This document shows, in pieces, positions 4,353 through 28,662 of a stretch of DNA of 64,000 nucleotides. How positions within the stretch are numbered: position 1 is the stretch's first letter; every line of letters begins with the position of its first letter. The notes beneath the pieces are model-generated. The model was given only the letters and a program-made list of their open reading frames with translations, was not told the origin of the DNA and did no database searches. Made by a program: the position numbers and the translations under genes. The DNA comes from an uncultured Nitrospinaceae bacterium (GTDB lineage Bacteria; UBA8248). Location: assembly GCA_964005815.1 (NCBI GenBank), contig CAXFSR010000060.1:8559-72558 (forward strand), given 5' to 3'.

Positions 4353-5858
4353 TTAAAATAAACTTGAAGCGGAAAGTTTTGTGATATCAATAAAACTATC
4401 TGGGAAAAGACCAAGATAAAGGGTCATAGACAATAGAATGACCAAAGTAAAGATTAATGAGGAAGCACGGGAGAATTCAAAAGGAATGTCTGGGTCCTTT
4501 GCAGGTTCCATAAACATCACCATAATAACTCGTCCATAATAATACATAGAAATCGCACTTGTAAGTATCCCGATAACAGCCAACCAATAGAATTCATTTT
4601 GTATTGCCGCTGCGAAGAGATATAACTTTCCTACAAAACCTGCAGTTGGAGGTATCCCAGCCAATGAAAGAAGAAAAACCACGAAACACATACCGAACCA
4701 AGGATGGGACTGACCTAATCCACGCCAATCTTCAATCTGATCTCCTCTTTTGCCTTCTTGGCACATCCATATCAGCATTCCAAAAGCACCTAAATTTGTA
4801 AACAAATATATACCTAAATAAAACAGTACTGAACTTACATTAAAATCACTAAAAAGATATTTCCCATTATGAATTGTGAAACATGAAACAAAACCCATCA
4901 AAATATAACCGGCATGACTCATACTTGAATACGCAAGCATACGTTTTAGATTCTTCTGTGCAATTGCAGCAATATTACCCCAAACCATTGTCGCAGCAGT
5001 TAAAGCCCAAAAGAGAACAGTCCATCTTGTACTCATAGAAGGCAAGGCTATGACAAAAAGTCGGACTATAACTGCCACAGCTGCTGCCTTCACTGCAACA
5101 GACATAAATGCAGTTACAGATGTTGGAGCGCCTGTATATGCATCTGGTAGCCACATATGAAAAGGAGCTAGCGCCATTTTAAAAGCAAAACCGCCAACTA
5201 ATAATATAACTGACAAAATTAAAACTGGCTGAGATACTACTGCATTTACATTAGAACTAGAAAGAGCCTTAGCGATAGCAGTAAATGATGTTGAACCGGT
5301 GTAGCCGTAGAGTAATGCGATACCATACAACAAAATTCCAGACGCAAAAGCACCCATCAAAAAATATTTAAATCCTGCTTCTCTACTTAATACATCATTT
5401 CTCATAAATGCAACTAAAACATAAATACTTATACTCATAGTTTCTATACCAAGATATAGAGTCATTAGATCATTAGCTGAAACTAAAACTAGCATCCCAA
5501 AAACGGAAAACAAAAGCATGGCATAAAATTCACCATAATTAATTTTTTCAACTTTCAGATAATCAATCGACATTAAAACTGTAAGAGCAGCACAAACTAA
5601 AATAGTAGATTTTAAGAAAACACTAAAATTATCAACTATATAAAAATCACTAAAGGTAGTTTTTGGCCCAACACCCCACTGAGATAAAGTAAAATAAAGG
5701 ACTATAATTATTCCAATTAAACTAACTAAACCAACTAGAGATTTCTTCTCTAATGAAACAAATAGATCAAAAATAAGAACAAATCCTATAAGAATAGCAA
5801 GACTAATCTCAGGCAAGGCCAGTGAAAATAATATGTCTGGTATAACTACTTGCTGCAT
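4353..5858 (-). CDS. nuoN: NADH-quinone oxidoreductase subunit N (operon 2)
   Basis: EAGFKYF, FKMALAPFHMWLPD, KRMLAYSS, SLAGIPP; last gene of cluster. Confidence 0.95.
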   Translation of the reverse strand: MQQVVIPDILFSLALPEISLAILIGFVLIFDLFVSLEKKSLVGLVSLIGIIIVLYFTLSQWGVGPKTTFSDFYIVDNFSVFLKSTILVCAALTVLMSIDYLKVEKINYGEFYAMLLFSVFGMLVLVSANDLMTLYLGIETMSISIYVLVAFMRNDVLSREAGFKYFLMGAFASGILLYGIALLYGYTGSTSFTAIAKALSSSNVNAVVSQPVLILSVILLVGGFAFKMALAPFHMWLPDAYTGAPTSVTAFMSVAVKAAAVAVIVRLFVIALPSMSTRWTVLFWALTAATMVWGNIAAIAQKNLKRMLAYSSMSHAGYILMGFVSCFTIHNGKYLFSDFNVSSVLFYLGIYLFTNLGAFGMLIWMCQEGKRGDQIEDWRGLGQSHPWFGMCFVVFLLSLAGIPPTAGFVGKLYLFAAAIQNEFYWLAVIGILTSAISMYYYGRVIMVMFMEPAKDPDIPFEFSRASSLIFTLVILLSMTLYLGLFPDSFIDITKLSASSLF

Positions 5859-5887: not shown

Positions 5888-7447
5888 TTAGTTTTTAGCA
5901 GAAACCTTTGAAATACGTTTTTGGATAATTGCAACGTTTTTACTCGTTTGATTCTGATCCACAATTTTCACAACTCTTTTAAGACTAGCCTCCATTTTAT
6001 TTATAAAAGGTTTAGGATAGAGACCAATCCAAAACATTAAAATAACTAAAGGAGCTAGATAAAGAATCTCTCTTAAATTACAATCTGGGATATTTTCATT
6101 TTTTGGATTTTCCAATTTCCCAAAAAATACTCTTTGAAATAACCAAAGCATATAAGCAGCACCAAGAACAATTCCAATCACAGCAAATGCCGCGTAAATA
6201 TAACTTTTCTTAAATGCACCAATAAGGATTAAAAACTCACCTACAAATCCATTTAACCCAGGTAGCCCTATACTACTTAACATAGTTATTGCAAAAATTA
6301 CGGTAAAAATTGGCATTTGCTTTGAGAGTCCGCCATATTCGGAAATTTCGCGTGTATGTCTTCTTTCATAAACAACTCCGACAAGTAAAAAGAGTGCGCC
6401 GGTACTAATACCATGATTTATCATTTGTAATTGACCACCTATTAGCCCCTGTTCATTTAACGCAAAAACTCCCAGCATAACAAATCCTAGATGACTGACT
6501 GATGAGTAAGCTACAAGCTTTTTAATGTCAGTTTGAGCCATCGCGACCAATGCTCCATATATAATTCCGATGATAGACAGAAGTACCATAAAAGGCACAA
6601 AAAGTTGCGTCGCCTCTGGAAGAAGAGGCAATACAAATCGAACAAAACCATATGTACCCATTTTCAATAGAATTCCAGCAAGAATTACACTACCGGCAGT
6701 CGGTGCCTCTACGTGCGCGTCAGGCAACCATGTATGAAAAGGAAACATTGGAACTTTGATAGCAAAACCAATGAAAAAGGCAAGGAAAATCCATACCTGT
6801 AAACTTAGTGGAATCTTTGGTCCCACAAGATACAATTCGGTTAGACTAAAAGTTAAAGAACCGGTTCCTGACTTCATATTAAAGAAATATAAAGCAAGGA
6901 TTCCTAGAAGCATTAAAACACTTCCGAAAAGCGTATAAAGAAAGAATTTTATTGCAGCATAGAGTTTTCTGGTTCCACCCCAAATACCAATCAAGAAATA
7001 CATCGGTACTAATGTAACTTCGAAGAAAACGTAAAACAGAAAGATATCAATTGCTAGAAATGTTCCAAGCATACCTGTTCCTAGCAAAAGCAAACAAACA
7101 TAATATTCTTTTTCACGTTCTTTAATAGCAGTAAAAGAACAAACAATAGAAATTAACATTGTTAACGTTGTTAGAAGAATCAAAAGTACACTAATCCCAT
7201 CTACTCCAAGATAATAACTGACACCAATTGATGGTATCCAGCTGACTTTTTCAACAAATTGAAATCCTGCCTCAGAGTCATTGAAGTTCGTCCATAAAGG
7301 AAGAGATATAAGAAAATCGAGAAATGCAACACCAGTAGCAAACATCTTGATTGTTTTCACTTGCTCTTTTTTTATAAAGAGCATAATAATAATTGCTCCC
7401 AGCAAAGGAAGAAAAATTATCAGCGAAAGAAGTGGAAGATTATTCAT
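5888..7447 (-). CDS. nuoM: NADH-quinone oxidoreductase subunit M (operon 2)
   Basis: IKVPMFPFHTWLPDAHVEAPTAGS, KKLVAYSSVSH, LPGLNGFVGE. Confidence 0.95.
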   Translation of the reverse strand: MNNLPLLSLIIFLPLLGAIIIMLFIKKEQVKTIKMFATGVAFLDFLISLPLWTNFNDSEAGFQFVEKVSWIPSIGVSYYLGVDGISVLLILLTTLTMLISIVCSFTAIKEREKEYYVCLLLLGTGMLGTFLAIDIFLFYVFFEVTLVPMYFLIGIWGGTRKLYAAIKFFLYTLFGSVLMLLGILALYFFNMKSGTGSLTFSLTELYLVGPKIPLSLQVWIFLAFFIGFAIKVPMFPFHTWLPDAHVEAPTAGSVILAGILLKMGTYGFVRFVLPLLPEATQLFVPFMVLLSIIGIIYGALVAMAQTDIKKLVAYSSVSHLGFVMLGVFALNEQGLIGGQLQMINHGISTGALFLLVGVVYERRHTREISEYGGLSKQMPIFTVIFAITMLSSIGLPGLNGFVGEFLILIGAFKKSYIYAAFAVIGIVLGAAYMLWLFQRVFFGKLENPKNENIPDCNLREILYLAPLVILMFWIGLYPKPFINKMEASLKRVVKIVDQNQTSKNVAIIQKRISKVSAKN

Positions 7448-7471: not shown

Positions 7472-9529
7472 CTATTGTAAAAGATAAGCACTTAACATTA
7501 AGAAAACACCTAAAAGCATTGCAAGCAAATAATTCTGAACCATTCCAGATTGTAAAAATTTAAAAACTTGACTAAAGAAACGAACAAAGTTCGCTACACC
7601 GTTCACTGCACCATCAACTGTCCTTATATCAAAAAGGGAAGACACTCGACTCGTTAAAACCGTTACAAATGTACTTCCATTTACAGCACCATCAACAACT
7701 TTAGCATCAAAATTCCACAAAAAACGCATCAATCTATAAATTGGCTCTACAATACATTTTTGATATAACTCGTCTACATAATACTTATTCAGTAAAATTT
7801 TATATAAACCTGGGAACTTTTGTTGTATTTGATCAGGCATGTTTGATTTTTTCCCATACATACTCCAAGCAATCACAATACCTCCAACAGCTATTATTAT
7901 AGCAAGTATAATTAAGTACATAGCTTCTGGTCCATGATGACCTCCGCTTTCTCCAGAAGCCGCATGAGCGGAAGAAATCAAATTAAAAGAAGAATGATGA
8001 GTCACATGAGACATTTTAGCGAGAGAAGGAGCTAGAAAATCATGAATCCACCCTTTTTCTGGTGGAAACCCGGGAATAATTCCTCCAAAAATACTCAAAA
8101 CTGCAAGTAAAATCAATGGTATTGTCATTGCGGGGGGAGATTCATGAATATGTTCCCTAGCATGAGTGTCTACTCTCATTTCTCCATGAAAAGTCATAAA
8201 AATCAGCCTAAACATATAAAAAGCAGTCATTAATGCTGCTATAGAACCAACTATCCATACAAAAGTATGTCCAGAGAAAAAAGCATTAGCCAAAATTTCA
8301 TCTTTACTCCAAAATCCTGCAAAAGGCGGAACGCCTGCTATTGCTATCGCACCGATTAGAAAAGTCCAATATGTTATTGGCATCTTAGATTTAAGACCAC
8401 CCATATATCTCATGTCTTGCTGTTGCTCTTCGGGAGCATGATGTAAAGCATGAATTACACTTCCACTTCCAAGAAACAAAAGACCTTTAAAAAATGCATG
8501 AGTCATAAGATGGAAAACACCTGCAGTAAATGCCCCAACCCCAAGCGCCATAAACATAAAACCTAATTGACTAACAGTACTATAAGCAAGCACACGTTTA
8601 ATATCATTTTGCACGAGACCTATAGATGCTGCAAAAATTGCTGTAAGTGCTCCTACAACAGCAATAACTTCTAAAGCCAAAGCTGCATCAACATATATAG
8701 GACTGGTTCTCGCAACCATATAAACGCCAGCCGTTACCATTGTAGCCGCATGAATTAGAGCACTAACGGGAGTAGGTCCTTCCATAGCATCAGGCAGCCA
8801 AACATAGAGAGGGATTTGAGCACTTTTTCCCATCGCACCAATAAAAAGCAGAAGTCCAATAATAGAAGCATAAGTAGTTTCAACACCAAGAACATTGATA
8901 TTTACGGCAAATTTCGATGTTGATTGCGACACTTCTTGGTAAGTGAGAGTATCTGCTAACATCCATATCAAAAACATTCCTAGTAAAAATCCAGCGTCTC
9001 CAATTCTGTTTACAATAAAGGCTTTTTTCCCTGCATCAGAAGCAGATTTTTTTTCATACCAAAAACCAATAAGCAAATAACTACATAAACCAACACCTTC
9101 CCATCCAACAAACATTACCAAATAGTTATCGCCAAGTACGAGGAGAAACATAGAAAGCATGAATAAATTGAGATATGTGAAAAATCTAGAGAATCCGGGA
9201 TCCCCATGCATATATCCAATTGAATAAAGATGAACCAAAAATCCAACTCCAGAAACAACTAAAAGCATAATTGTACTTAATGGATCTATAAGAAAACTTA
9301 GCGAAACACTAAAACTTCCTGCGTGAATCCATTCCCAGAGATGAACGGTATGTTTTCCACCAGCACCAAAAATCATTTCATTCGCAATGAAAATTACAAC
9401 CAACAGAGACAATCCTGCCATTAAAGTTGCTATATAACCGGATTTCTCCCCTAATCGTTTTCCAAAAATTCCATTAATTAGAACACCTACAACAGGGAAA
9501 AAAGGAATTAACCATGCATTTAAAATCAT
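7472..9529 (-). CDS. nuoL: NADH-quinone oxidoreductase subunit L (operon 2), with extended lateral helix
   Basis: GWEGVG, GKSAQ, WLPDAMEGPTPVSALIHAATMV, HAFFK; DGAVNG motif occurs twice, 26 aa apart. Confidence 0.95.
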   Translation of the reverse strand: MILNAWLIPFFPVVGVLINGIFGKRLGEKSGYIATLMAGLSLLVVIFIANEMIFGAGGKHTVHLWEWIHAGSFSVSLSFLIDPLSTIMLLVVSGVGFLVHLYSIGYMHGDPGFSRFFTYLNLFMLSMFLLVLGDNYLVMFVGWEGVGLCSYLLIGFWYEKKSASDAGKKAFIVNRIGDAGFLLGMFLIWMLADTLTYQEVSQSTSKFAVNINVLGVETTYASIIGLLLFIGAMGKSAQIPLYVWLPDAMEGPTPVSALIHAATMVTAGVYMVARTSPIYVDAALALEVIAVVGALTAIFAASIGLVQNDIKRVLAYSTVSQLGFMFMALGVGAFTAGVFHLMTHAFFKGLLFLGSGSVIHALHHAPEEQQQDMRYMGGLKSKMPITYWTFLIGAIAIAGVPPFAGFWSKDEILANAFFSGHTFVWIVGSIAALMTAFYMFRLIFMTFHGEMRVDTHAREHIHESPPAMTIPLILLAVLSIFGGIIPGFPPEKGWIHDFLAPSLAKMSHVTHHSSFNLISSAHAASGESGGHHGPEAMYLIILAIIIAVGGIVIAWSMYGKKSNMPDQIQQKFPGLYKILLNKYYVDELYQKCIVEPIYRLMRFLWNFDAKVVDGAVNGSTFVTVLTSRVSSLFDIRTVDGAVNGVANFVRFFSQVFKFLQSGMVQNYLLAMLLGVFLMLSAYLLQ

Positions 9530-9539
9530 TTCTAGTTAC

Positions 9540-9845
9540 CTACCATTTTAAAAGATTTACTTCATCAACATTCATAACAGTTTTATCACGATTCAACGAA
9601 ATCAAAATCGCCAATCCAACAGCAGCTTCACAGGCAGCAACGGCAATAACAAAAATCGCAAAAACTTGACCGGATAGATCCGCCCACTGTCTAGAAAAAC
9701 CAATTAAAGTAACATTTACCGCATTTAACATAAGTTCTATAGATAAGAGAATAATAATAGCGTTTCTTCTCATAAGAACACCTGCTGCACCAATAAGAAA
9801 AAGTACAGCTCCTAGAGTCAAAAAATGAGAAATAGGTATCATCAA
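9540..9845 (-). CDS. nuoK: NADH-quinone oxidoreductase subunit K (operon 2)
   Basis: IELMLNA, AACEAAVGLA. Confidence 0.95.
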   Translation of the reverse strand: MMIPISHFLTLGAVLFLIGAAGVLMRRNAIIILLSIELMLNAVNVTLIGFSRQWADLSGQVFAIFVIAVAACEAAVGLAILISLNRDKTVMNVDEVNLLKW

Positions 9846-9851
9846 AATCTC

Positions 9852-10361
9852 CTATGAATCTATTCTTTTCTTAGCAAGCACAATTGCACCAATCATGGCG
9901 GCTAACAAAAGAATAGAAACTACTTCGAACGGAAAAACAAATTTCGTATACAAAACGCTTCCCAATGCTTCTACATTTCCAGGGGTTGCTCCTAACTTCC
10001 AAGGCCATACTTTCATTGCGGGGAAAACTCCCTTACCAAGAACAGACCAAATTTCGAAACCCAAAATTAACACAATTAGAATCGCAAAAAATCGTTGTCT
10101 GTGCCATTGACGAATTCGTACTGCAACCTGAACATTCATTAACATAATCGAGAATAGGTACAGAACCATAATACCACCAGAATAAATAAGAACTTGAACA
10201 GCCGCAAGGAATTCAGCTCCAGCTAAGACAAAAAGTCCTGCCAAGAAGAAGAATGACAAAACTAATAAAAGAGCTGCATGAATTACATTAGACCTTGTAA
10301 TCATGAACAAAGATGTAATCACTATACCGGCAGAAAAAAGATAGAAAAATGGCAGTTCCAA
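9852..10361 (-). CDS. nuoJ: NADH-quinone oxidoreductase subunit J (operon 2)
   Basis: QVLIYSGGIMVL, FPFEVVSILLL.AMIGA. Confidence 0.95.
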   Translation of the reverse strand: MELPFFYLFSAGIVITSLFMITRSNVIHAALLLVLSFFFLAGLFVLAGAEFLAAVQVLIYSGGIMVLYLFSIMLMNVQVAVRIRQWHRQRFFAILIVLILGFEIWSVLGKGVFPAMKVWPWKLGATPGNVEALGSVLYTKFVFPFEVVSILLLAAMIGAIVLAKKRIDS

Positions 10362-10377
10362 ATGTAGCTCCTAAAAC

Positions 10378-11349
10378 TTATAAGAAAAGATACTTAATCA
10401 AACCAGTTAGAAAAATATTAATGAGTACAAGAGGAAACATAAATTTCCAACCAACACGCATCAATTGATCATATCGATATCTAGGCAATGTAGCTCTAAG
10501 CCAAATAAAAACAAAAATCATAGCGGCTAGCTTTAGCACAAACCATACAAAACCTGGTAAAGGAATTCCAGGAATTCCCATCCAACCACCAAAAAACAAC
10601 GTAATTCCAACGGTTGAAACAACCATAATATTTGCATACTCAGCTAGAAAGAAAAATGCGAACTTCATTCCACTGTATTCTGTATGAAAACCAGAAACGA
10701 GTTCCGTCTCAGCTTCAGGCAAATCAAAAGGGACACGATTAGTTTCCGCTAAAGCAGCAATGAAGAATACTATAAAAGCCAACGGTTGCGAGAATACAAA
10801 CCAACCTTCGGACTGTGCTTCAACAATTTTTTGCATATTTAGTGAACCCGCAAGCATCAAAGGACCGATGAGAGCAAAACCGAGAAAAATTTCGTAACTC
10901 AACATTTGCGCAGCACTTCTCAATGCACCTAGTAGACTATACTTACTGTTTGATGCCCAACCAGCCATAACAACTCCAAAAACACCTAGAGAACTTATAG
11001 CTAGAATCAAAAATAATCCAATATTTACTTGGGTAATATAGAAATTTTCACTAAAAGGTAAAACTGAATATACTACAAACGCGGGGACTAAAACCATGAT
11101 AGGAGCAAGGACAAAAACAACTTTGTCTGATTTTGCAGGAATTATATCTTCTTTCAAGAAAAGCTTAAGTCCATCGGCAATAGGCTGTAAAAGACCGTGC
11201 CAGCCTACTCGCATTGGACCCAATCGCATTTGTATGTGAGCAATAATTTTTCTCTCCAGATAGGTCAAATAAGCAACCACTAGAGAAACAACTAAAAGTA
11301 CTACTGCAATTTTAATAAACGCTATTAATGCCTCTGTTGCAATATCCAA
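10378..11349 (-). CDS. nuoH: NADH-quinone oxidoreductase subunit H (operon 2)
   Basis: [37 protein letters not shown]. Confidence 0.95.
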
Positions 11350-11370
11350 TGAAATAAACTCCCAAACAAA

Positions 11371-12513
11371 TTATCTATCACATTCCCCAAGTACGATATC
11401 TATGCTTCCAATAACGGCAACAACATCTGCAAGTAGACCTCCAACACACAATTTTTTTAGAGCAGCTAAATTTATAAATGACGGGGGTCTAATACGCACA
11501 CGATATGGTGTTTCTGTACCATCGCTAACTATATAGAATCCGAATTCTCCTTTAGGGTTTTCAATACTATGATATATTTCACCCTCTGGAGGCTTAATTG
11601 TTCTTGGTGTTTTACAGCTCACAGGTCCATCAGGTAATTGCTCTAAACACTGCTGTATGATTTTCACACTTTGCCTTAATTCTTCAATCCTAACGATATA
11701 CCTGTCATAAATATCTCCATTTTCGCCAGTAGGAACTACAAAATCTAAGTATGGATAGGCCGCATATGGTTTAGCCCTTCTCAAATCATAATTTACTCCA
11801 CTTGCTCTCAAGAGAGGACCAGACAAACCAAAATCAACTGCATCTTCACCTGAAATAACTCCCACTCCACGAGTACGTTGAAGCCAAATACGATTATTAG
11901 TCAAAAGTGTTTCATAATCTTGAATTCGACTGGGGAAAATATCGATAAACTCTTGTGCTAATGTCAAAAACTTTGCTGGAACATCTTGCTCCAATCCGCC
12001 TAAACGGAATGCATTCACAGTTAAACGACCACCAAACGCTGTTTCAAATAAATCAAGTACCATCTCCCTTTCTCTAAAGCACCATAGAAAAACTGTCATT
12101 GCTCCAATATCAAGAGCATGAGTAGCTAACCATAACAAATGACTAGCAATACGAGAAAATTCACCAACCATAGAACGTATATAGTTGGCTCGCATAGGAA
12201 TTTCCCAATCGAAAAATTTTTCAACTGCAGTTACCCATGCCAAATTATTAGAAGGAGCAGCTATATAATCCAAGCGGTCGGTATAAGGTATAAACATGGA
12301 ATAGGTTATATTTTCACCTATTTTTTCGGTACCTCTATGCAGGTATCCAATATCACAATCAAGATCTGTCACTGTTTCACCATCTAGATGAAGAATCACA
12401 CGAAGTACACCATGTGTACTAGGATGCTGGGGTCCCATATTTACTACAAGTTCCTCAGCTCCAGTAACAGTCTTTGTTTGAATTTCTGAATTTGTTTCTT
12501 CTATTTCATACAA
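11371..12513 (-). CDS. nuoD: NADH-quinone oxidoreductase subunit D (operon 2, short form)
   Basis: NMGPQHPSTHGVLR, GYLHRGTEK, DRLDY, ends DIVLGECDR. Confidence 0.95.
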   Translation of the reverse strand: MYEIEETNSEIQTKTVTGAEELVVNMGPQHPSTHGVLRVILHLDGETVTDLDCDIGYLHRGTEKIGENITYSMFIPYTDRLDYIAAPSNNLAWVTAVEKFFDWEIPMRANYIRSMVGEFSRIASHLLWLATHALDIGAMTVFLWCFREREMVLDLFETAFGGRLTVNAFRLGGLEQDVPAKFLTLAQEFIDIFPSRIQDYETLLTNNRIWLQRTRGVGVISGEDAVDFGLSGPLLRASGVNYDLRRAKPYAAYPYLDFVVPTGENGDIYDRYIVRIEELRQSVKIIQQCLEQLPDGPVSCKTPRTIKPPEGEIYHSIENPKGEFGFYIVSDGTETPYRVRIRPPSFINLAALKKLCVGGLLADVVAVIGSIDIVLGECDR

Positions 12514-12532
12514 ATTTCAAATCTCCTAATCA

Positions 12533-13126
12533 TTACTCTCCTATTTCCTTTCGTTGAGGCTTTTCATATACTCTCTCGCCTTTTCCTTCTATAGGGTAGC
12601 TTTTAAGCATTGGATGGCTCCCCCAATCATCAGGCAATAAAATTCTTCTCAAGTCAGGATGACCAGAAAAATCAATTCCAAAAAGATCAAAAACTTCCCG
12701 TTCCATCCAATTGGCACTAGACCAAAGATTGGATAATGTAGGAATGGATTGCTCTTCTTGTAATTTCACTTTTAAACGTACACGTCGATTTCTTTCAATG
12801 CTATATAGTTGGTATATTAAATGAAGGGGTAGATCGTCATCTGGATAATGCGTAGCTGTCAAATCAACAAGCATAGTGAACTTAAAGACTTCATCATCCC
12901 TAAGTAAAAGCGCAACTTCTTCTATGGAATCCGGTTTTATAGTAATACTAAGCTCATCCTCAAAATCACTAAATGCTTCAGCATCAAATGTAGACCCTGA
13001 AAATTTAGCCTCTAGAAAATCAAGGATATCCTTACCAACGTCTTCTTTCGAATCTTCCTCTGGGTTTTTTTCTGAGGTCTCTTCCTCTACCTCGGAATTC
13101 TCACCTTGAACTGACTCGTCTGCCAT
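12533..13126 (-). CDS. nuoC: NADH-quinone oxidoreductase subunit C (operon 2)
   Basis: ANWMEREVFDLFGIDFSGHPDLRRIL; acidic N-terminal extension. Confidence 0.95.
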   Translation of the reverse strand: MADESVQGENSEVEEETSEKNPEEDSKEDVGKDILDFLEAKFSGSTFDAEAFSDFEDELSITIKPDSIEEVALLLRDDEVFKFTMLVDLTATHYPDDDLPLHLIYQLYSIERNRRVRLKVKLQEEQSIPTLSNLWSSANWMEREVFDLFGIDFSGHPDLRRILLPDDWGSHPMLKSYPIEGKGERVYEKPQRKEIGE

Positions 13127-13155
13127 CTCATTCCTTAAAAGTTAATTTCTGAATC

Positions 13156-13632
13156 TTATTTGCGAATAAATTTCTCTTGTTCAATTTTTTTCTGTAACTG
13201 CATTACTCCCCACATAAGAGATTCCGGTCTGGGAGGACATCCAGGAATGTAAACATCAACGGGAATAATCTCATCTACCCCTTGCATTACTGCATAATTT
13301 GGATAAGGTCCACCACAAGTTGCGCAATTTCCCATAGCTATAACCCATCTTGGTTCAGGCATTTGATCATAAACTTTTCTAATTGCACTTCCCATTTTAT
13401 GAGTGACTGTTCCAGCAACTATAATTACATCTGATTGTCTTGGGGTAGCACGAAAAATTACTCCAAATCTATCAAAATCATACCTTGCCGCACCTGAAGC
13501 CATCATTTCAATCGCACAACAAGCAAGACCAAATGTCATCGGCCATAAAGCACTTTTCCTAGCCCAAGCAACAAGACTATCTACCTTGGAAGTAATAAAA
13601 TTGTCGTTAAATTTTCCTTCTACTACGCCCAT
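13156..13632 (-). CDS. nuoB: NADH-quinone oxidoreductase subunit B (operon 2)
   Basis: GLACCAIEM (N2 tandem Cys), MGNCA, PGCPP; ATG at 13632 overlaps the nuoA end. Confidence 0.95.
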
Positions 13633-14033
13633 TCCAGAGCTCCTTTTTTCCAAGCATAAAAGTATCCTACTAATAAAACTAAAATGAATAACATCATTTC
13701 GACAAAACCAAATAAACCTAAAGCATCATACTTAACTGCCCAAGGGAAAAGAAAAAGAGCTTCTACATCAAATAATAAAAACAAAATCCCTAATAGATAG
13801 AAGCGTACAGAGAACCTTTCATTCGCCTCCATTAATGGAGGAGAACCACATTCATATGCTGATAATTTCTCTGGATCTGGATTATTGGGTCTAATTAATA
13901 GAGCAATTAATAATGTTATGCCTGCAAACGCAAAAGCGAACATTACAAAAATAAAAATAGGCAAATAACCATTAATGAGTTGATAATCTCTAAAAAACAC
14001 ACTTAGAAATTCTGGCACAACAAAATCTTCCAA
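13623..14033 (-). CDS. nuoA: NADH-quinone oxidoreductase subunit A (operon 2)
   Basis: YECG, LFDVE, KGALEW. Confidence 0.93.
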
Positions 14034-14125: not shown

Positions 14126-15610
14126 TCAATTCAAGGAAATATTTGAGCTCAAGGCAAAATCCAAAAAGAAAGATGGAAAGACGCCTAAACTCAATGTTCC
14201 AATTACACATATAACTAATGCAACTACAGCATAAGATAATCTAGACCCCCATACAAATATGAACTGCTCTTTTTTTACATCTTCTACAGGGTCATTCATA
14301 TACATTACAACAATTACTCTTAAATAATAAAATACCGAAACTACGCTATTTAAAACAGCAATAATAGCGAGCCAAACAAAGTCTGACTTTATAGCAGCGC
14401 TAAAAATATAAAATTTTGCAACAAATCCACCTGTTGGAGGAATTCCCGCCAATGCAATCATAAAGATTGCCATGGATAATGCTAATCCTGGTCGAGTTAA
14501 ACCTAACCCAGAGAATTCTTCTATAAGTATTCTTTCTTTTCCATCTTCCTTTTTCGCAAGCATTACGACAGCAAATGCGCCTATATTCATAAATGTGTAA
14601 ACAAATACATAGAAGAGAAAACTAGCAGAGGATAAGGTCCCAGCTTGTTTAATTGTGACTAATGCAATGAGTAAATAACCAGCATGGGCAATACTGGAAT
14701 AAGCAAGCATTCTTTTAATATTTGTCTGCCATATAGCTACAAGATTTCCTAAAGTCATAGTTAATACTGCAATTATCCATATTGTTATCTCAATTTTATT
14801 GGCAGAAAAACCAGAGGAGGCAATAAAAACACGGAACAGCGCTGCAAATGCGGCTACTTTTGGACCTACAGACATAAAAGCAGTAGCAACAGTAGGAGAG
14901 CCTTGATATACATCCGGAGTCCACATATAAAATGGGAAAGCTCCTATTTTAAATCCAAAACCAACAATAATAAGACTGAGCCCCAAAAAGAACACTAACT
15001 TTTGGGAAGAAACTTCATATAATTTGATAATTTCAAAAAGATCTGTAGACCCTGTTGATCCATAAATAAGCGCTATACCAAAAAGTAAAAATCCCGAAGC
15101 AAAAGAACCTAACAGAAAGTACTTCAAAGAAGCTTCATTTCCAATAGAACTAGAACGGAAAAAACCAGCTAGGACATAGAGGGAAAGTGAAAAAATCTCT
15201 AGAGCAATAAAAATCATTACAAGATTTCTTGTCGATACCATAAGCATCATTCCTAGTGTTGCAAAAAGTATCAGCCCTAAAAAATCCCCATATGAGTTTT
15301 CTTCAAATTTTCTCTCCATCGAAGAAATTAAAACAACTAAAAAACTTGAAAAAAGAATTATAAGAAAAAGAGTTCTTGTAAAACCATCAAACAAATACAT
15401 TCCGCCAAAAGAAATTTTGGTGGTTTCCGGACTTGAAAGCAAACATGAGACAAATGTGGTCAACAAAACTATAATAGACAACCAAAACGTGATTTTTCGA
15501 TTTTTATCAGAGGTAAAAATATCGAAAAGTAGAACCATGACAGCGCCAAAAGTTAGAATTGGTATAGGTAGAAAGCTTTTCCAAAAAATTACAGGAAAAA
15601 TAAATTCCAT
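14126..15610 (-). CDS. nuoN: NADH-quinone oxidoreductase subunit N (operon 1)
   Basis: EASLKYF, FKIGAFPFYMWTPDVY, KRMLAYSS. Confidence 0.95.
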   Translation of the reverse strand: MEFIFPVIFWKSFLPIPILTFGAVMVLLFDIFTSDKNRKITFWLSIIVLLTTFVSCLLSSPETTKISFGGMYLFDGFTRTLFLIILFSSFLVVLISSMERKFEENSYGDFLGLILFATLGMMLMVSTRNLVMIFIALEIFSLSLYVLAGFFRSSSIGNEASLKYFLLGSFASGFLLFGIALIYGSTGSTDLFEIIKLYEVSSQKLVFFLGLSLIIVGFGFKIGAFPFYMWTPDVYQGSPTVATAFMSVGPKVAAFAALFRVFIASSGFSANKIEITIWIIAVLTMTLGNLVAIWQTNIKRMLAYSSIAHAGYLLIALVTIKQAGTLSSASFLFYVFVYTFMNIGAFAVVMLAKKEDGKERILIEEFSGLGLTRPGLALSMAIFMIALAGIPPTGGFVAKFYIFSAAIKSDFVWLAIIAVLNSVVSVFYYLRVIVVMYMNDPVEDVKKEQFIFVWGSRLSYAVVALVICVIGTLSLGVFPSFFLDFALSSNISLN

Positions 15611-17160
15611 TACTGACCTCCTCTAGTAGTAATTGAAGATGAAACTAGTCGAGGTTTAATATTTTTTGTCTCTTTTGCAACAAGTTTGCGCCCTTTAATT
15701 TTAAGAAGCAAAGATTTTGTAGAAGGTTCGATTATCTTAAGTATTGGCTTTGGATAAATACCTAACAAAAAAACTAAGAAAATCATCGGCACCAACACAA
15801 ACCATTCGCGAAGATTTAGGTCAGTTAAAATCTTATTAGCTTCTATTCTTATTTTTCCAAATATCACCTTCTGCACCATGGGCAACATGTAGACAGCGGA
15901 AAGAACAACACCAATAGTTGCTATTATCGTGGGGATAAAGTGTGATTGGAAAGAGCCAGACAAAATGGCAAATTCTCCTACAAAACCGTTTAATCCAGGA
16001 AGTCCAATACTACTGAAAACAGTAATCACAAAAAAAACAGAAAAAGCAGGCATCACTTTTGCGATCCCACCAAAATCATCTATCAAACGTGTATGTCTTC
16101 TTCTATAGAGCATGCCAACCATCAAGAAAAGTAGTCCGCTACAAATACCATGGTTGACCATCTGCAAAACACTTCCACCAAGAGCTAAGAGATTAAATGA
16201 AAAAAGCCCGAACATAACAAATCCTAAATGACTTATAGAGGAATAGGCTACAAGTTTTTTTGCATCCCTTTGAATCATAGCCATCAATCCACCATAAATA
16301 ATGCCAACCAACGAAAGAAAAACAAAAAGAGGTGAAAACACAATAGCAGCTTCGGGAAAAAGTGGAATTGCTAGTCTTATGAAACCGTAAGTACCCATTT
16401 TCAAAAGAACACCAGCAAGAATTACACTCCCTGCTGTTGGCGCCTCTACATGTGCATCAGGCAACCAGGTATGAAAAGGGAACATTGGCACCTTGATTGC
16501 AAAAGCTATTGCAAACGCAACAAAAAGCCATGTCTGGAGTAAAGGGTCAACAGGAGAATTTAAGAAAACTAAAATATTAAAAGTCCCAACACCAGTTGCA
16601 AAATATAGCCATAAAATTGCAATAAGCATCAAAACACTTCCGGCCATTGTATATAGGAAAAATTTCATTGCAGAGTAAATTCTTTTCTTCCCACCCCAAA
16701 TTCCAATAATGAAATACATTGGAATTAGCATAGCTTCCCAGAACACATAAAAAAGAAAAAAATCTAAAGAAACAAAAACACCTAACATCGCGGTTTCAAG
16801 AAGAAGCATAGAGAAATAATACAAACGAATGCGTTTCTTGATATCATCCCAAGAAAACAACAAGACTATTGGAGTTAAAAAAGTCGTAAGTAGAATTAAC
16901 GGGAGACTAATTCCATCCAACCCAACTCTATAAGAAACCCCCATAGAATCTATCCATTTAAAATTCTCTACAAATTGCATTTCTGGAGATGATTGAAAAT
17001 TTACAAAAATTACCAATGAAAAAAGAAAAGAAACTAGACTAGAAATTATCGCAATAAGAAAAATTTTTTTACATTGCTTTTCGTTTTTATCCCCAAAAAA
17101 CAAAATAAAAAAAGCACCAATTAAGGGAGAAAAAACCATCCAGCTAATAACAGGAAACAA
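15610..17160 (-). CDS. nuoM: NADH-quinone oxidoreductase subunit M (operon 1)
   Basis: FWEAMLIPM, IKVPMFPFHTWLPDAHVEAP. Confidence 0.95.
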   Translation of the reverse strand: MFPVISWMVFSPLIGAFFILFFGDKNEKQCKKIFLIAIISSLVSFLFSLVIFVNFQSSPEMQFVENFKWIDSMGVSYRVGLDGISLPLILLTTFLTPIVLLFSWDDIKKRIRLYYFSMLLLETAMLGVFVSLDFFLFYVFWEAMLIPMYFIIGIWGGKKRIYSAMKFFLYTMAGSVLMLIAILWLYFATGVGTFNILVFLNSPVDPLLQTWLFVAFAIAFAIKVPMFPFHTWLPDAHVEAPTAGSVILAGVLLKMGTYGFIRLAIPLFPEAAIVFSPLFVFLSLVGIIYGGLMAMIQRDAKKLVAYSSISHLGFVMFGLFSFNLLALGGSVLQMVNHGICSGLLFLMVGMLYRRRHTRLIDDFGGIAKVMPAFSVFFVITVFSSIGLPGLNGFVGEFAILSGSFQSHFIPTIIATIGVVLSAVYMLPMVQKVIFGKIRIEANKILTDLNLREWFVLVPMIFLVFLLGIYPKPILKIIEPSTKSLLLKIKGRKLVAKETKNIKPRLVSSSITTRGGQ

Positions 17161-17173
17161 GACAAAACCCTTT

Positions 17174-19102
17174 TTAAAATCTATTTGAAAAATTAAAAAC
17201 CATCAATAAAATAATACACACTAAGCCAAACAAAATAGATACTGCATATGTTTTAACGTATCCATCTTGTAAAAAACGCAGCGTTAATCCTAGAGACTTA
17301 ACCAATCGACCAGTACCATTCACTGTTGCATCAATTACGTTTTGCTCAAAAAGCTTGAAAAACAAACTTGCAATAGTTCTTAATGGACGTACCAGAATGA
17401 AATCATAAATTTCATCAATATAATATTTATTTTCAAGAAGAGAATAAATACTTACATTGAGTGTTGATGTACTAGGAAGAATTTGTCGTTTTTTGCAACA
17501 GGTTTGATAAGCTAGGAAAATACCTAATAAAGCAACACCAAGAGATAAAAACATTAAGACAAGTTCTAAAGTTAAATTATGATGTAGTTCCACCGAACCT
17601 GATGGACTCAATGCTGAGGAAAGAAATTCAGCAAAAACATTTCCCCCTGATATAATTGGGATACCTACCCATCCTCCCACAATAGAGAAAAAAGCAAGAA
17701 CAAATAATGGGAAAATCATAATCGGTGGCGATTCGTGTACATGTATTTTATTTTCGTTGAAATTTTTATCTCCATAAAAAACCTTAAATACCAGTCTAAA
17801 GGTATAGTAAGAAGTCATTAAAGCACCTAATATCCCCGCAAACCAAAAAAGATTAGAGAAAGAACCACTTGTAAAAGCGGAAAACAAAATTGCATCCTTA
17901 CTAAAAAATCCTGCTAAAGGAAAAACTCCTGAAATTGCCAGAGAACCAATCAAGAAAACAAAACTAGTTTTGGGGATATCAGATTTTATTCCCCCCATTT
18001 TTTCAATATCTTGTTCCCCATCCATTGCATGAATTACACTTCCCGCACCAAGAAAAAGCAAAGCCTTAAAAAAAGCATGAGTCATAAGATGAAACATTGC
18101 TGTTGCATAAGCTCCAAGACCGCAAGCTAAAAACATATAGCCTAGCTGACTTAAAGTACTGTATGCTAAAATTTTTTTAATATCTTTCTGAACCAGTGCA
18201 ATAGAAGCCGCAAATAATAAAGTGAAAGTTCCTATAATCGCTATGATCATAAGAGTCGATGGCGCAAGGCTAAACAGAACATCGTTTCGAACAAGCAAAT
18301 AAATCCCTGCAGTTACCATAGTTGCCGCGTGTATGAGAGCACTTACAGGCGTAGGACCCTCCATGGCATCCGGAAGCCATACATGAAGTGGAAACTGTGC
18401 ACTTTTTCCAGCTGCTCCCAAAAATAAAAAGAGACATAATAAATTTACATTAAGGCTATCTTTGACGAATAGTTCGGATGCACTTTTAGAAATATCTGTA
18501 AAATCAAATGTTCCAAAGACAGTTAGAATATAAAATAAGGCAATAAGAAAACAGAAATCTCCAACTCTATTTACTATGAATGCTTTTTTCCCAGCCTCTG
18601 TAGCAGAAGGTTTTTCATACCAAAACCCGATAAGTAAATAACTACACAAACCTACTGCTTCCCAACCAACAAACATCAATAAAAAATTATCAGCCAACAC
18701 TAGTAATAACATAGAAAAAGAAAAAAGATTCAAATAAATGAAATAACGAACAATACCCAAATCTTCACGCATGTATGCGACAGAATAAATATGAACCATG
18801 AATCCGACACCAGTAATAATTAAAGTCATAATAGAAGATATCGGATCAATCACAAATCCAATTTTAATTATCAAATTCCCAATAGGGATCCAATTAAAAA
18901 GAAATATAGAAACGATTCTATCTTGCGGACTTTGGGATAAAAAACTAAAGAATAGAAATAGAGAAACTAGAAACGATAACAATATTGCTGTGGAAGCTAT
19001 CCAACCAGATAATGACTCTTTTTTCCCTTTCCCCAACAACAGAAGATTTGCGAACAAACCCAAAAGCGGGAAAAAAAGTATCAAGAGAATTAATTTGCTC
19101 AT
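17174..19102 (-). CDS. nuoL: NADH-quinone oxidoreductase subunit L (operon 1)
   Basis: WLPDAMEGPTPVSALIHAATMV; single IDATVNG helix motif. Confidence 0.95.
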   Translation of the reverse strand: MSKLILLILFFPLLGLFANLLLLGKGKKESLSGWIASTAILLSFLVSLFLFFSFLSQSPQDRIVSIFLFNWIPIGNLIIKIGFVIDPISSIMTLIITGVGFMVHIYSVAYMREDLGIVRYFIYLNLFSFSMLLLVLADNFLLMFVGWEAVGLCSYLLIGFWYEKPSATEAGKKAFIVNRVGDFCFLIALFYILTVFGTFDFTDISKSASELFVKDSLNVNLLCLFLFLGAAGKSAQFPLHVWLPDAMEGPTPVSALIHAATMVTAGIYLLVRNDVLFSLAPSTLMIIAIIGTFTLLFAASIALVQKDIKKILAYSTLSQLGYMFLACGLGAYATAMFHLMTHAFFKALLFLGAGSVIHAMDGEQDIEKMGGIKSDIPKTSFVFLIGSLAISGVFPLAGFFSKDAILFSAFTSGSFSNLFWFAGILGALMTSYYTFRLVFKVFYGDKNFNENKIHVHESPPIMIFPLFVLAFFSIVGGWVGIPIISGGNVFAEFLSSALSPSGSVELHHNLTLELVLMFLSLGVALLGIFLAYQTCCKKRQILPSTSTLNVSIYSLLENKYYIDEIYDFILVRPLRTIASLFFKLFEQNVIDATVNGTGRLVKSLGLTLRFLQDGYVKTYAVSILFGLVCIILLMVFNFSNRF

Positions 19103-19103
19103 A

Positions 19104-19406
19104 TTAAAATTTCAACAAATTGACTTCGTCAAGGTCAGTAGATTCTCGATTCCTGTATATCATTACAACAATCGCCAAACCTATCGCCGCTTCTGCAGCA
19201 GCTACAGCCATAACAAAAAAAACAATTAGTTGTCCATCCATAGAATTTAAAAAATATCCATAACTAACAAAGGCAAGATTTGCACCACTCATCATAAGTT
19301 CAATACATAAAATAACAACTATTACACTCCGTCTTACAATTACGCCAATAACACCCAACGTAAAAAGAATTGAACTAAGAAAAAGATAATTTTCTAAAGG
19401 TACCAT
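19104..19406 (-). CDS. nuoK: NADH-quinone oxidoreductase subunit K (operon 1)
   Basis: IELMM, AAAEAAIGLA. Confidence 0.95.
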   Translation of the reverse strand: MVPLENYLFLSSILFTLGVIGVIVRRSVIVVILCIELMMSGANLAFVSYGYFLNSMDGQLIVFFVMAVAAAEAAIGLAIVVMIYRNRESTDLDEVNLLKF

Positions 19407-19423
19407 ACGTCTTCATCCCAAAA

Positions 19424-19942
19424 TTAACGACTTTTTTTTCTTCCTAAAACAACTGCTCCAATGATGCCGACAAAAAGAAGGACTCCCATTGTTTGAAATG
19501 GCAAAAGATATTTCGATAGCAAAAACTGTCCTATTAACTGTGTGTTTCCAACTTCATTAATAAATTGCGGAGTGAAAACTCCCTTGATTTGAGGAGAAAT
19601 ACTCATATCTTTCAAAACGATTATTAAGACCAAAAATACAAATAAACCAAAAACAATCCCCAGTAGTTTCTGGAAAGGAATTTTTAAATCCTTTTTTTCC
19701 TCTTTGTCTAAATTTATAAGCATAATGACGAATAAGAAAAGCATCATTATTGCACTTGCATAAACAATAATTTGAACTATCGCAACAAATTGGGCGTTTA
19801 AAGATAAGAATAATCCAGCAAGACCAAGGAAAGTTACTATCAAACTAAAAACACAATACATGGGATTAGGCAAAGCAACAACTGAAACTGCGCCGACTGT
19901 GGTTACTATTGCCAAGAAATAAAAAACTAAAGTTGATGCCAT
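19424..19942 (-). CDS. nuoJ: NADH-quinone oxidoreductase subunit J (operon 1)
   Basis: QIIVYASAIMMLFLFVIML; position in operon. Confidence 0.93.
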   Translation of the reverse strand: MASTLVFYFLAIVTTVGAVSVVALPNPMYCVFSLIVTFLGLAGLFLSLNAQFVAIVQIIVYASAIMMLFLFVIMLINLDKEEKKDLKIPFQKLLGIVFGLFVFLVLIIVLKDMSISPQIKGVFTPQFINEVGNTQLIGQFLLSKYLLPFQTMGVLLFVGIIGAVVLGRKKSR

Positions 19943-19954
19943 AAATCATAAACC

Positions 19955-20434
19955 TTATAAATAGGTAAGAAGTTTTTCTTCAGGATAGCGGTTTTTTAAT
20001 TCAGGATAATCTTCGTTCCGTTTTACTAAAAAATCTTCTTTTTCATATAAAAATTTACTTCTGTCATCCGCACAAAATTCGTATTCATTGCTAAGAACAA
20101 TTGCACCAACCGGACATGCTTCTTCACAATATCCACAAAAAATACATCTCAGTTCATTGATCTCATAAACAGAAGCATACCGCTCTCCTTTAGAAACAGG
20201 GGAACTAGACTCATTCTCTTCAGACTCAACATAAATACAATCTACTGGACAAGCTGCAGAACAAAGTTTACATCCTACACAACGTTCAAGACCGTCTTCC
20301 CATCGAAGTAATTTGTGTAAACCTCTATATCCTATTGGCATACTTTCTTTTTGCTCTGGATATTGAACAGTCTCACGGCTTTTCCAGGAATGTTTCAGAG
20401 TAAGCCAAAGACCTCTAAAAATAGCAGTAAACAT
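19955..20434 (-). CDS. nuoI: NADH-quinone oxidoreductase subunit I (operon 1)
   Basis: TVQYPE; two 4Fe-4S motifs CVGCKLCSAACP and CIFCGYCEEACP. Confidence 0.97.
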   Translation of the reverse strand: MFTAIFRGLWLTLKHSWKSRETVQYPEQKESMPIGYRGLHKLLRWEDGLERCVGCKLCSAACPVDCIYVESEENESSSPVSKGERYASVYEINELRCIFCGYCEEACPVGAIVLSNEYEFCADDRSKFLYEKEDFLVKRNEDYPELKNRYPEEKLLTYL

Positions 20435-20458
20435 TGAAATCCCTCTATTTTCTGAAAT

Positions 20459-21442: not shown

Positions 21443-21454
21443 TTTTTTAAATCC

Positions 21455-23998: not shown

Positions 23999-24023
23999 AC
24001 TGAATCTCCAATACTAATTTTAA

Positions 24024-25325: not shown

Positions 25326-25344
25326 AATTTAATCCATAAAAAAA

Positions 25345-25959: not shown

Positions 25960-25978
25960 GCGAAATTACTCCTTAAAT

Positions 25979-27202: not shown

Positions 27203-27228
27203 AATTATGTAATCTCTTTAATTTAAAC

Positions 27229-27789: not shown

Positions 27790-27838
27790 CTTTTACCCTT
27801 TGTATCTTTCACCTAAAAAATGGAAATCAACTGAGGAT

Positions 27839-28315: not shown

Positions 28316-28662
28316 TCTAAAGCCCCTCTTTTCCACTCATAAATTAAGCTTGCAAAAAGTAAAAAAACAAAAGGCATCACTGCCACAAAACCAAAAACCC
28401 CAAGACTTTTCAAATTAACAGCCCATGGATATAAAAAAATTATTTCAACATCAAAGACAATAAAGAGAATTGCTACCAAAAAGAATTGTATTGAAAAACG
28501 TCCTCGTGCACTCGTTTCTGGTATAATTCCGCATTCATAAGCTACATTCTTTTTGTTTGAAGGAGTTCTCTTCCCAAACAAAAAAGTTATACAAATATTT
28601 AAAAAAGCAAAACAAGTTGCTAATCCAATCATCATGAAAATAGGGAGAAAATCTTGAGACAA
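28306..28662 (-). CDS. nuoA: NADH-quinone oxidoreductase subunit A (operon 1)
   Basis: [22 protein letters not shown]. Confidence 0.95.

What the first reader, a model, noticed from the sequence alone, without database searches (positions are those of the whole stretch)
7598..7693. NuoL carries the 26-aa '2M' lateral-helix extension, but its operon has only one nuoM
Seen: in operon-2 NuoL the helix motif DGAVNG occurs twice, exactly 78 nt (26 codons) apart (FDAKVVDGAVNG...FDIRTVDGAVNG). Operon-1 NuoL has it once (VIDATVNG). Known: an insertion of about 26 residues in the NuoL amphipathic helix is the signature of 2M complex I (e.g. Nitrospira), where it lets the helix span an extra NuoM antiporter subunit. 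Inference: with a single nuoM in this operon, the complex may take two copies of its own NuoM or recruit the NuoM of the adjacent operon. That would give a cryptic, higher H+/e- complex I that gene counting would miss.
Basis: partly seen in the sequence, partly recalled or inferred. Interest (0 to 1): 0.85.

Follow-up and report, generated by a model that had tools for sequence, protein, structure and literature searches.

The report
Lengthened NuoL clamp helix, one nuoM
One of the two complex I gene sets of this marine nitrite-oxidiser relative has a strap helix that is one 26-residue unit longer, as in enzymes with four proton pumps, but no fourth pump gene exists, so the enzyme may use one pump subunit twice or simply have a longer brace.

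Summary
NuoL of operon 2 (7472-9529, minus strand, 685 aa) carries DGAVNG at residues 613-618 and 639-644, 26 residues apart. This is an old tandem doubling of a 26-residue unit inside the lateral helix HL.

The window comes from a Nitrospinota genome. The doubling is found in 48 of 51 genomes of that phylum. Its length never varies, and both copies are as conserved as their flanks.

This NuoL groups with the NuoL of Nitrospira "2M" complex I (SH-like support 0.94 and 0.92; SH-aLRT 97). However, each operon has one nuoM. Two relatives have only the three pump genes nuoL, nuoM and nuoN in the whole genome, so borrowing the neighbouring operon's NuoM cannot be the general answer.

In my enriched sample, 56 of 74 long-helix NuoL genes sit beside one nuoM and 17 beside two. 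None of 51 normal NuoL genes sits beside two. The trait is therefore the usual state of a large family. It was noted in print for Manganitrophaceae (PMC9040806), and this scan has met it before on other DNA.

What lies under the extra unit is unresolved. My estimates are about 0.4 for a second copy of NuoM and about 0.33 for a longer brace on three pumps.

The parts
7472..9529 (-). nuoL of operon 2 (NuoL2, 685 aa) with the lengthened lateral helix
   Evidence: TIGR01974 scores 772.9 bits (cut-off 407.5); the match stops at residue 625, position 598 of 630 in the profile. Best PDB hits are NuoL chains. AF2 model has mean pLDDT 85. VIA-align gives Z 50-55 to solved NuoL chains.
7634..7711 (-). 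HL repeat unit 1 (aa 607-632, FDAKVVDGAVNGSTFVTVLTSRVSSL)
   Evidence: Mean majority-residue fraction 0.84 over 35 distinct Nitrospinota sequences.
7556..7633 (-). HL repeat unit 2 (aa 633-658, FDIRTVDGAVNGVANFVRFFSQVFKF). One of the two units is the extra one relative to canonical NuoL.
   Evidence: Canonical NuoLs show a 25-26 column gap in this stretch of the alignment. Conservation is 0.84, the same as unit 1. AF2 models it as helix but with pLDDT 46-53.
7478..7543 (-). C-terminal anchor helix TM16 (about aa 663-684), which follows LQSG
   Evidence: Hydrophobic stretch after LQSG. It aligns to the C-terminal helix of solved NuoLs (second stretch against 8qby_L).
5888..7447 (-). nuoM of operon 2 (NuoM2, 519 aa), the only nuoM of this operon
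   Evidence: TIGR01972 scores 649.6 bits. In the M tree it groups with the M subunits of other long-helix operons, support 0.985.
4353..5858 (-). nuoN of operon 2 (501 aa)
   Evidence: TIGR01770 scores 450.5 bits, against 158.8 for the NuoM model.
9540..14033 (-). nuoA, B, C, D, H, J, K of operon 2; the operon has no nuoE, F, G or I
   Evidence: ORFs and NCBIfam names. tblastn finds nuoE, F and G only in operon 1 and a second nuoI-like gene on another contig.
14126..28662 (-). Operon 1, nuoA to nuoN (14 genes), with a canonical NuoL1 (17174-19102) and NuoM1 (15610-17160)
   Evidence: NuoL1 has a spacing of 52 and a single motif.

Best explanation
Shown: operon 2 encodes a complex I-like enzyme without the NADH-input genes nuoE, F and G and without nuoI. 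Its NuoL lateral (clamp) helix is longer by exactly one 26-residue unit, about 39 A if helical. The unit is an ancient tandem copy of the helix stretch that carries the FDxxxVDGxVNG motif. It is under the same selection as the rest of the helix and is shared by descent with the NuoL of Nitrospira four-pump (2M) enzymes. Inferred: each 26-residue unit docks one antiporter-like subunit, so the membrane arm has four pump positions. No fourth pump gene exists in the operon, and in relatives G005 and G006 none exists anywhere in the genome. The fourth position would therefore be filled by a second copy of an existing subunit, most likely NuoM2, giving L-M-M-N from one nuoM gene. Such an enzyme would move one more proton per two electrons. 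That suits coupling between quinol and low-potential ferredoxin, which these rTCA-using nitrite oxidisers need; the role was proposed for NUO-2 and for the Nitrospira 2M enzyme in PMC3578206 and PMC6606698.
For: The insert has the same length and place as in operons with two nuoM. NuoL2 falls in an exclusive clade with the Methylomirabilota long NuoLs and the Nitrospira 2M NuoLs. SH-like support is 0.94 and 0.92 on trees built without the insert columns; SH-aLRT is 97 with IQ-TREE, but there the insert columns were kept. The spacing is 77 in all 48 Nitrospinota loci, and both units are as conserved (0.84) as their flanks (0.78 and 0.87). All long NuoLs found in the other sampled groups have a spacing of 77-78. 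Two full-length nuoM occur only behind a long NuoL: 17 of 74, against 0 of 51 behind a canonical NuoL. The two helix units stay alike where there is one M (7.5-9.8 of 26 identical) or two similar Ms (10.0 of 26; Ma-Mb 50-52% identical). They have drifted apart where the two Ms differ strongly (Nitrospira: 3.8 of 26; Ma-Mb 29-35%). G005 and G006 have exactly three PF00361 genes, all in the operon. TM15 and the start of HL superpose on E. coli NuoL (model 2-605 on chain 1-561, rmsd 2.3 A over 548 residues), so the extra length lies beyond the NuoL core. 35 of 36 long-NuoL operons with enough upstream DNA lack nuoE and nuoF, which fits a donor or acceptor other than NADH.
Against: No composition or structure data exist. 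To my knowledge (recalled, not searched) no complex I relative is known to use one antiporter-like subunit at two positions. NuoM would need faces that fit L, itself and N, and something would have to stop longer chains from forming. One nuoM beside a long NuoL is the majority state (56 of 74) in lineages with varied lifestyles, which could equally mean that the unit has another job. The repeat-similarity pattern rests on about five or six independent lineages. The sample was enriched for long NuoLs and is full of close kin. AF2 gives low confidence (pLDDT 46-53) for unit 2 and cannot place TM16 without partner subunits. I saw no sign of higher translation of nuoM2 in its start region (a weak test).
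Confidence: 0.4

Rival explanations
1. Three pumps with a longer brace. The enzyme is L-M-N. The extra unit lets the helix and its anchor TM16 reach about 39 A further, over NuoK/J/A towards NuoH, or it adds a second contact. It serves stability or assembly, not an extra pump.
For: One nuoM is the commonest partner of a long NuoL (56 of 74). No fourth pump gene exists in G005 or G006. In the clade that contains NuoL2, the two-nuoM Nitrospira group is one of three branches, so the long helix with a single nuoM gene may be the older state and does not depend on a second gene. The authors of PMC9040806 leave open that such enzymes are 'in evolutionary transition'.
Against: The fixed length and the retained copy of the same docking motif point to a partner surface like the one unit 1 meets, and NuoK/J/A do not have that fold (inference). 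Both units are equally conserved. Two-nuoM operons arise only on this background.
Confidence: 0.33
2. The fourth position is filled by NuoM1 of the adjacent operon 1.
For: The two operons are adjacent and on the same strand here. Long-helix and canonical operons also lie in tandem in Methylomirabilota and in the phylum of G052.
Against: G005 and G006 keep the long NuoL with one nuoM and have no operon 1. NuoM1 and NuoM2 are only 56% identical and lie far apart in the M tree.
Confidence: 0.05
3. An unrelated, unrecognised membrane protein encoded elsewhere sits under the extra unit.
For: Nothing direct. nuoI of this enzyme is already encoded away from the operon, so off-operon subunits do exist.
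Against: The genes of operon 2 are tightly spaced with no extra ORF. A partner of another fold is unlikely to fit a copy of the same docking motif (inference).
Confidence: 0.1
4. The extra unit is a leftover of a former two-nuoM enzyme and has no present function.
For: The NuoL2 clade includes two-nuoM enzymes.
Against: Length never varies, and sequence is as conserved as the flanks across 48 loci spanning the phylum's families sampled.
Confidence: 0.04

Closest known systems
2M complex I of Nitrospira (Chadwick, Hemp, Fischer and Orphan 2018, ISME J 12:2668). The paper is not held; I know it only through passages of PMC6606698, PMC9040806, PMC10579370 and PMC12342949.
   Same: NuoL is lengthened by about 26 residues in helix HL at the same place, and the NuoLs share a clade. 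The operon lacks nuoE and nuoF. The host is a nitrite oxidiser using the rTCA cycle, and the proposed role is quinol-to-ferredoxin reverse electron flow.
   Different: The Nitrospira operons carry two nuoM: Ma, plus a very divergent Mb that is 29-35% identical to Ma. They also carry an enlarged nuoG-like gene and nuoI but no nuoH. Here there is one nuoM, no Mb-type gene in the genome, nuoH is present, and nuoI and nuoG are absent from the operon.
Complex_I_1 and Complex_I_2 of Ca. Manganitrophaceae (Yu et al. 2022, PMC9040806; passages read)
   Same: The HL insertion occurs in a NuoL from clusters that the authors describe as canonical in gene content and order, not as having an extra pump. 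The authors call this curious and leave its meaning open.
   Different: The lineage differs (Nitrospirota), and those clusters are described as canonical in gene content. I did not see their Fig. S2 or their sequences.
NUO-2 of Nitrospina gracilis (Luecker et al. 2013, PMC3578206; Kop et al. 2024, PMC10839748; passages read)
   Same: It is a second nuo gene set in class Nitrospinia, proposed to reduce ferredoxin by reverse electron transport.
   Different: The passages I read on 'complex I', 'NUO' and 'NUO-2' do not mention the NuoL helix. The gene layout described for the 2013 draft genome differs from the compact ABCDHJKLMN operon seen here.
Canonical complex I NuoL with solved structures (E. 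coli 7z84/3rko, T. thermophilus 4he8, P. denitrificans 8qby)
   Same: The fold is the same (Z 50-55), and TM15 and the start of HL superpose.
   Different: The solved chains have one FD..VDGxVNG-type unit; 0 of the 5 PDB sequences matching the HL region carry two.

Membership tests
NuoL (NADH-quinone oxidoreductase subunit L, TIGR01974) | Score above the curated cut-off | tested here: met
   772.9 bits against a cut-off of 407.5
2M complex I (as described in the citing papers read) | NuoL lengthened by about 26 residues in the lateral helix | tested here: met
   Spacing of 77 against 51-53, with the insert aligned to that of two-nuoM operons
2M complex I (as described in the citing papers read) | A second nuoM gene | tested here: not met
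   One nuoM in the operon and two in the genome, one per operon. No Mb-type gene: all 8 PF00361 genes are accounted for as L1, L2, M1, M2, N1, N2, MrpA and MrpD.
2M complex I (as described in the citing papers read) | NuoL related by descent to the 2M NuoLs | tested here: met
   Exclusive clade with the Nitrospira 2M NuoLs: 0.94 and 0.92 (FastTree, insert columns removed) and 97 (IQ-TREE quick, insert columns kept)
2M complex I (as described in the citing papers read) | Four antiporter-like subunits in the assembled enzyme | not testable with these tools
   This needs subunit composition or a structure. The complex-prediction job was never accepted.
Long-helix NuoL with a single nuoM (Manganitrophaceae Complex_I_1/_2 type, PMC9040806) | HL insertion of about 26 residues together with a single nuoM | tested here: met
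   The same combination occurs in 56 of 74 sampled long-NuoL loci.
Complex I-like enzymes lacking the NADH module | No nuoE, F or G in the operon; the N2 cluster cysteines of NuoB are kept | tested here: met
   The operon is ABCDHJKLMN. NuoB2 shows the CC...C...C pattern in its translation (read by eye).

The most novel reading that the evidence does not exclude
Enzymes with a long NuoL and one nuoM, including NUO-2 of the marine nitrite oxidisers, are hidden four-pump machines in which one NuoM polypeptide fills two neighbouring positions (L-M-M-N) and the clamp helix acts as a ruler that sets the number. A single 78-base tandem duplication in nuoL would then have been enough to create a higher H+/e- enzyme. 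The known two-nuoM (2M) operons would be later gene duplications that split a homodimer into two specialised copies.
Probability: 0.38. Interest if true: 0.8.

Novelty: new member of a known kind. Interest (0 to 1): 0.42.

Why it matters
Gene counting is how proton-pump stoichiometry is currently inferred from genomes. If long-helix NuoLs with one nuoM really hold four pump modules, the energy budgets of Nitrospinota (the main marine nitrite oxidisers), Methylomirabilota and many other lineages would need revising. The cost of making reduced ferredoxin for CO2 fixation would be among the revised figures. If they hold three, the 26-residue insert should no longer be read as a sign of a 2M enzyme. 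In either case, one structure or one quantitative subunit ratio would settle the question for a large family.

Tried and rejected
1. Complex prediction of NuoM2 with itself (alignment A2, residues 1-495, two copies). It never ran, so there is no result of any kind.

2. AF2 of NuoL2 alone. HL and TM16 come out as one unbroken helix (582-684) with low confidence beyond about residue 630. The model cannot say where TM16 docks.

3. Start regions of the nuo genes. There is no clear sign that nuoM2 has a stronger ribosome-binding site than nuoL2 or nuoN2; I dropped this as too weak a test.

4. Hydrophobic-moment profile of HL. It shows amphipathic stretches on both sides of the repeat junction but decides nothing.

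5. L151 first looked like a two-nuoM Methylomirabilota operon. It is one nuoM split over two overlapping frames.

6. The two antiporter-like genes on contig C36 were considered as a possible fourth pump. They belong to a complete Mrp operon.

7. The idea that the helix starts further out on NuoL, so that the extra unit would cross NuoL itself, is rejected, because TM15 and the start of HL superpose on E. coli NuoL.

8. Chadwick et al. 2018 could not be read: it is not held by DOI or by PMC id. A search for E. coli NuoL 'D563' found no text. Only the title of Steimle et al. 2012 was seen, in a reference list, so I make no claim about which residue of the repeat matches Asp563.

9. Single versus multiple origin of the long helix. 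Long NuoLs fall in at least four places in the trees. I ran no AU test, so this is left open.

Full report
**What is in the window.** The window has 35% G+C. Its closest public relative is a Nitrospinota metagenome-assembled genome (94% identity over NuoL). Two nuo operons lie head to tail on the minus strand.
- Operon 1 (28662-14126) has all 14 genes, nuoA to nuoN.
- Operon 2 (14033-4353) has nuoA, B, C, D, H, J, K, L, M and N, and lacks nuoE, F, G and I.
- In the whole genome (97% complete, 64 contigs), nuoE, F and G occur only in operon 1. A second nuoI-like gene lies on another contig.

**The observation.** NuoL2 (7472-9529, 685 aa) has DGAVNG at residues 613-618 and 639-644, which are nt 7676-7693 and 7598-7615, exactly as reported.
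- The two 26-residue units (607-632 and 633-658) share 11 of 26 residues and 40 of 78 bases, so the duplication is old.
- The distance from the KYYVDE motif to LQxG, just before the last transmembrane helix, is 77 residues in NuoL2. It is 51-53 in the canonical NuoLs measured, including NuoL1.
- In a 72-sequence alignment, canonical NuoLs show a clean 25-26 column gap in this stretch.
- The NCBIfam NuoL model stops matching at residue 625, while NuoL1 matches end to end.

**The insert lies in the lateral helix, beyond the NuoL core.**
- The AF2 model (mean pLDDT 85, pTM 0.83) gives one continuous helix from 582 to 684. Confidence falls to 46-53 between about residues 631 and 670.
- Against solved NuoL chains the model scores Z 50-55. 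Residues 2-605 superpose on E. coli NuoL 1-561 at 2.3 A over 548 residues. TM15 and the start of the helix are therefore in the usual place, and the extra length comes after them.
- Five distinct PDB sequences match the last 145 residues at E up to 1. Each has a single motif. In the Paracoccus chain, both query copies align to the same VIDGTINGVA.

**Distribution in Nitrospinota.**
- Of 51 genomes held for the phylum, 48 have a match to the long helix region. 47 of these cover nearly the whole query, and one is cut by a contig end.
- Of the other three genomes, one is 67% complete and one 79%. The third is 92% complete but in 490 contigs.
- In 48 loci (35 distinct sequences) the spacing never varies. 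Both units are as conserved as their flanks: majority-residue fraction 0.84 and 0.84 against 0.78 and 0.87.
- 44 of the 51 genomes have exactly two NuoM-class genes, one per operon. The exceptions are incomplete or fragmented genomes, one genome with duplicated contigs, and G005 and G006.
- G005 and G006 (2.1 Mb, 95% complete, 2 and 6 contigs) have only the operon-2 type, ABCDHJKLMN, with a long NuoL of 673 and 677 aa. Each has exactly three genes of the antiporter-like family PF00361 in the whole genome.
- A fourth pump module in those two genomes could therefore only be a second copy of NuoL, NuoM or NuoN. The neighbouring operon's NuoM cannot be the general partner.
- In the window's own genome, the other two antiporter-like genes belong to a complete Mrp operon.

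**Relation to true 2M enzymes.** Nitrospirota operons fetched here have the long NuoL followed by two nuoM: 13 complete loci, plus L125 cut at its contig end.
- Their gene order is A B C D G-like I J K L Ma Mb N. This matches the description of clade 3 2M operons in PMC6606698 (passages read).
- On trees built without the insert columns, Nitrospinota NuoL2, the Methylomirabilota/NC10 long NuoLs and the Nitrospira 2M NuoLs form an exclusive clade. SH-like support is 0.94 (116 sequences) and 0.92 (153 sequences).
- A 61-row IQ-TREE (LG+C20, quick search) gives 97 for the same clade. Its three branches are unresolved, and in that run the insert columns were kept.
- In the NuoM tree, Nitrospira Mb is a long basal branch. 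NuoM2 groups with the M subunits of other long-helix operons (0.985).
- In that clade, two of the three main branches are one-nuoM and only the Nitrospira branch is two-nuoM. One gain of a second nuoM is thus more parsimonious than two losses. This is an inference from midpoint-rooted trees, and I ran no AU test.

**Wider survey.** I fetched loci in four ways:
- the best 80 of 596 confirmed hits to NuoL2 in the species-representative genomes;
- 15 Nitrospirota loci out of 17 genomes with a hit among 251 searched;
- 20 loci out of 47 genomes with a hit among 201 in the Methylomirabilota phylum;
- 19 loci out of 33 genomes with a hit among 301 in the phylum of the two-nuoM genome G052.

I counted only loci where nuoN was found downstream:

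| NuoL type | one nuoM | two nuoM | fragments only | total |
|---|---|---|---|---|
| long helix | 56 | 17 (13 Nitrospirota, 4 phylum of G052) | 1 (L046) | 74 |
| canonical | 49 | 0 | 2 | 51 |

- Three long-helix loci and 23 canonical loci were cut by contig ends and were left out of the counts.
- The sample was chosen by similarity to the long helix and holds many close relatives, so these are not frequencies in nature.
- Long NuoLs fall in at least four places in the trees.
- Of 36 long-NuoL operons with at least 8 kb of upstream DNA, 35 lack nuoE and nuoF. 20 of 41 canonical ones have both.

**A pattern that bears on mechanism.**

| Lineage | nuoM genes | identical residues between the two helix units (of 26) | Ma-Mb identity |
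|---|---|---|---|
| Nitrospinota | one | 9.8 | - |
| Methylomirabilota phylum | one | 8.7 | - |
| phylum of G052 | one | 8.6 | - |
| Bryobacter-like | one | 7.5 | - |
| phylum of G052 | two | 10.0 | 50-52% |
| Nitrospira | two | 3.8 | 29-35% |

- In Nitrospira the second motif has decayed to VIYGGLNVIGY.
- NuoL2 and the Nitrospira NuoLs share a clade, so if the doubling arose once in that clade (an inference) the two units are equally old in both. The difference would then reflect constraint and not age. That fits both units meeting the same kind of surface where only one NuoM exists.
- The pattern rests on about five or six independent lineages and is only suggestive.

**Reading.** The fixed one-unit length, the equal conservation of both units and the retained copy of the docking motif favour a fourth antiporter-like position. 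So do the restriction of two-nuoM operons to this background and the lack of any fourth gene. A second copy of NuoM would fill that position; I put this at about 0.4.

It would also offer a one-step evolutionary route, in which a single 78-base duplication in nuoL creates a four-pump enzyme if NuoM can pair with itself.

Against this, to my knowledge (recalled, not searched) no relative is known to use one such subunit twice. The one-nuoM state is the majority in varied lineages, and I have no composition data. The main rival, a longer brace on a three-pump arm, stays at about 0.33. The multimer prediction that might have shifted these odds slightly never ran, because the queue was full at every try.

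**What is in print.** Yu et al. 2022 (PMC9040806, passages read) report the same kind of insertion in the NuoL of Complex_I_1 and Complex_I_2 of Manganitrophaceae. They describe those clusters as canonical in gene content and order, and they leave open whether the enzymes can take extra pumps or are in transition.
- The Nitrospinota papers (PMC3578206, PMC10839748) describe NUO-2, but the passages I read on 'complex I', 'NUO' and 'NUO-2' do not mention the helix.
- My searches of the held library found no other paper on a long NuoL without a second nuoM: NuoL with amphipathic helix, insertion and '2M complex I', and Nitrospinota with complex I and NuoM.
- Chadwick et al. 2018 is not held, and I did not open the supplements of PMC9040806.

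**What the scan found before.** The scan's own notes show the same finding on other genomes, with the same open end. I reached my results before reading them. They are AI notes and not independent evidence.

**Verdict.**
- the trait holds across the phylum Nitrospinota;
- two genomes have only three pump genes, which rules out a borrowed pump;
- NuoL2 shares a clade with the Nitrospira 2M NuoLs;
- the repeat-similarity pattern fits a single kind of docking surface where there is one NuoM.

The count of 47 of 201 Methylomirabilota-phylum genomes includes one genome flagged as unpublished (G455). No sequence from it was used.

Noticed in passing
G000 contig C23: 94222-94608 (locus L140: 8193-8849), outside the window: A stand-alone NuoI-like protein with two [4Fe-4S] clusters (218 aa, 36-39% identical to the operon-1 NuoI) lies directly after a 341-aa pyridine-nucleotide-disulphide-oxidoreductase-family gene. 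G005 and G006 also have a single nuoI-like gene away from their only nuo operon. This may be the missing NuoI, and possibly part of the electron-input side, of the operon-2 enzyme.
   Followed up: partly
window 4353-28662; also loci L142-L161 and L166-L174: A long-helix operon without nuoE/F lies directly next to a second nuo operon in Nitrospinota (canonical operon first). The same is seen in Methylomirabilota and in the phylum of G052 (long-helix operon first). The recurring pairing across these three groups is unexplained.
   Followed up: partly
L125-L136, L138 and L139 (Nitrospirota): The second NuoM (Mb) of the Nitrospira 2M operons is only 29-35% identical to Ma and branches at the base of all NuoM in the tree. 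It is a very old or fast-evolving paralogue, not a recent duplicate. The four two-nuoM operons in the phylum of G052 have Ma and Mb 50-52% identical.
   Followed up: partly
L151 (G485), L016, L069, L046: In several metagenome-assembled genomes nuoM is split over two frames or fragmented. In L046 the region after the long nuoL looks rearranged. These may be assembly errors or real frameshifts, and they can mimic a second nuoM in automatic counts.
   Followed up: partly
G000 contig C36 (locus L141: 3985-9708), outside the window: A complete Mrp-type cation/proton antiporter operon (MrpA with MbhD/E domains, then B, C, D, E and G). It accounts for the only antiporter-like genes outside the two nuo operons.
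   Followed up: yes
window 13623-14033: NuoA2 as called from the first start codon is 136 aa, against 118 aa for NuoA1. The extra N-terminal stretch may only reflect the choice of start codon.
   Followed up: no
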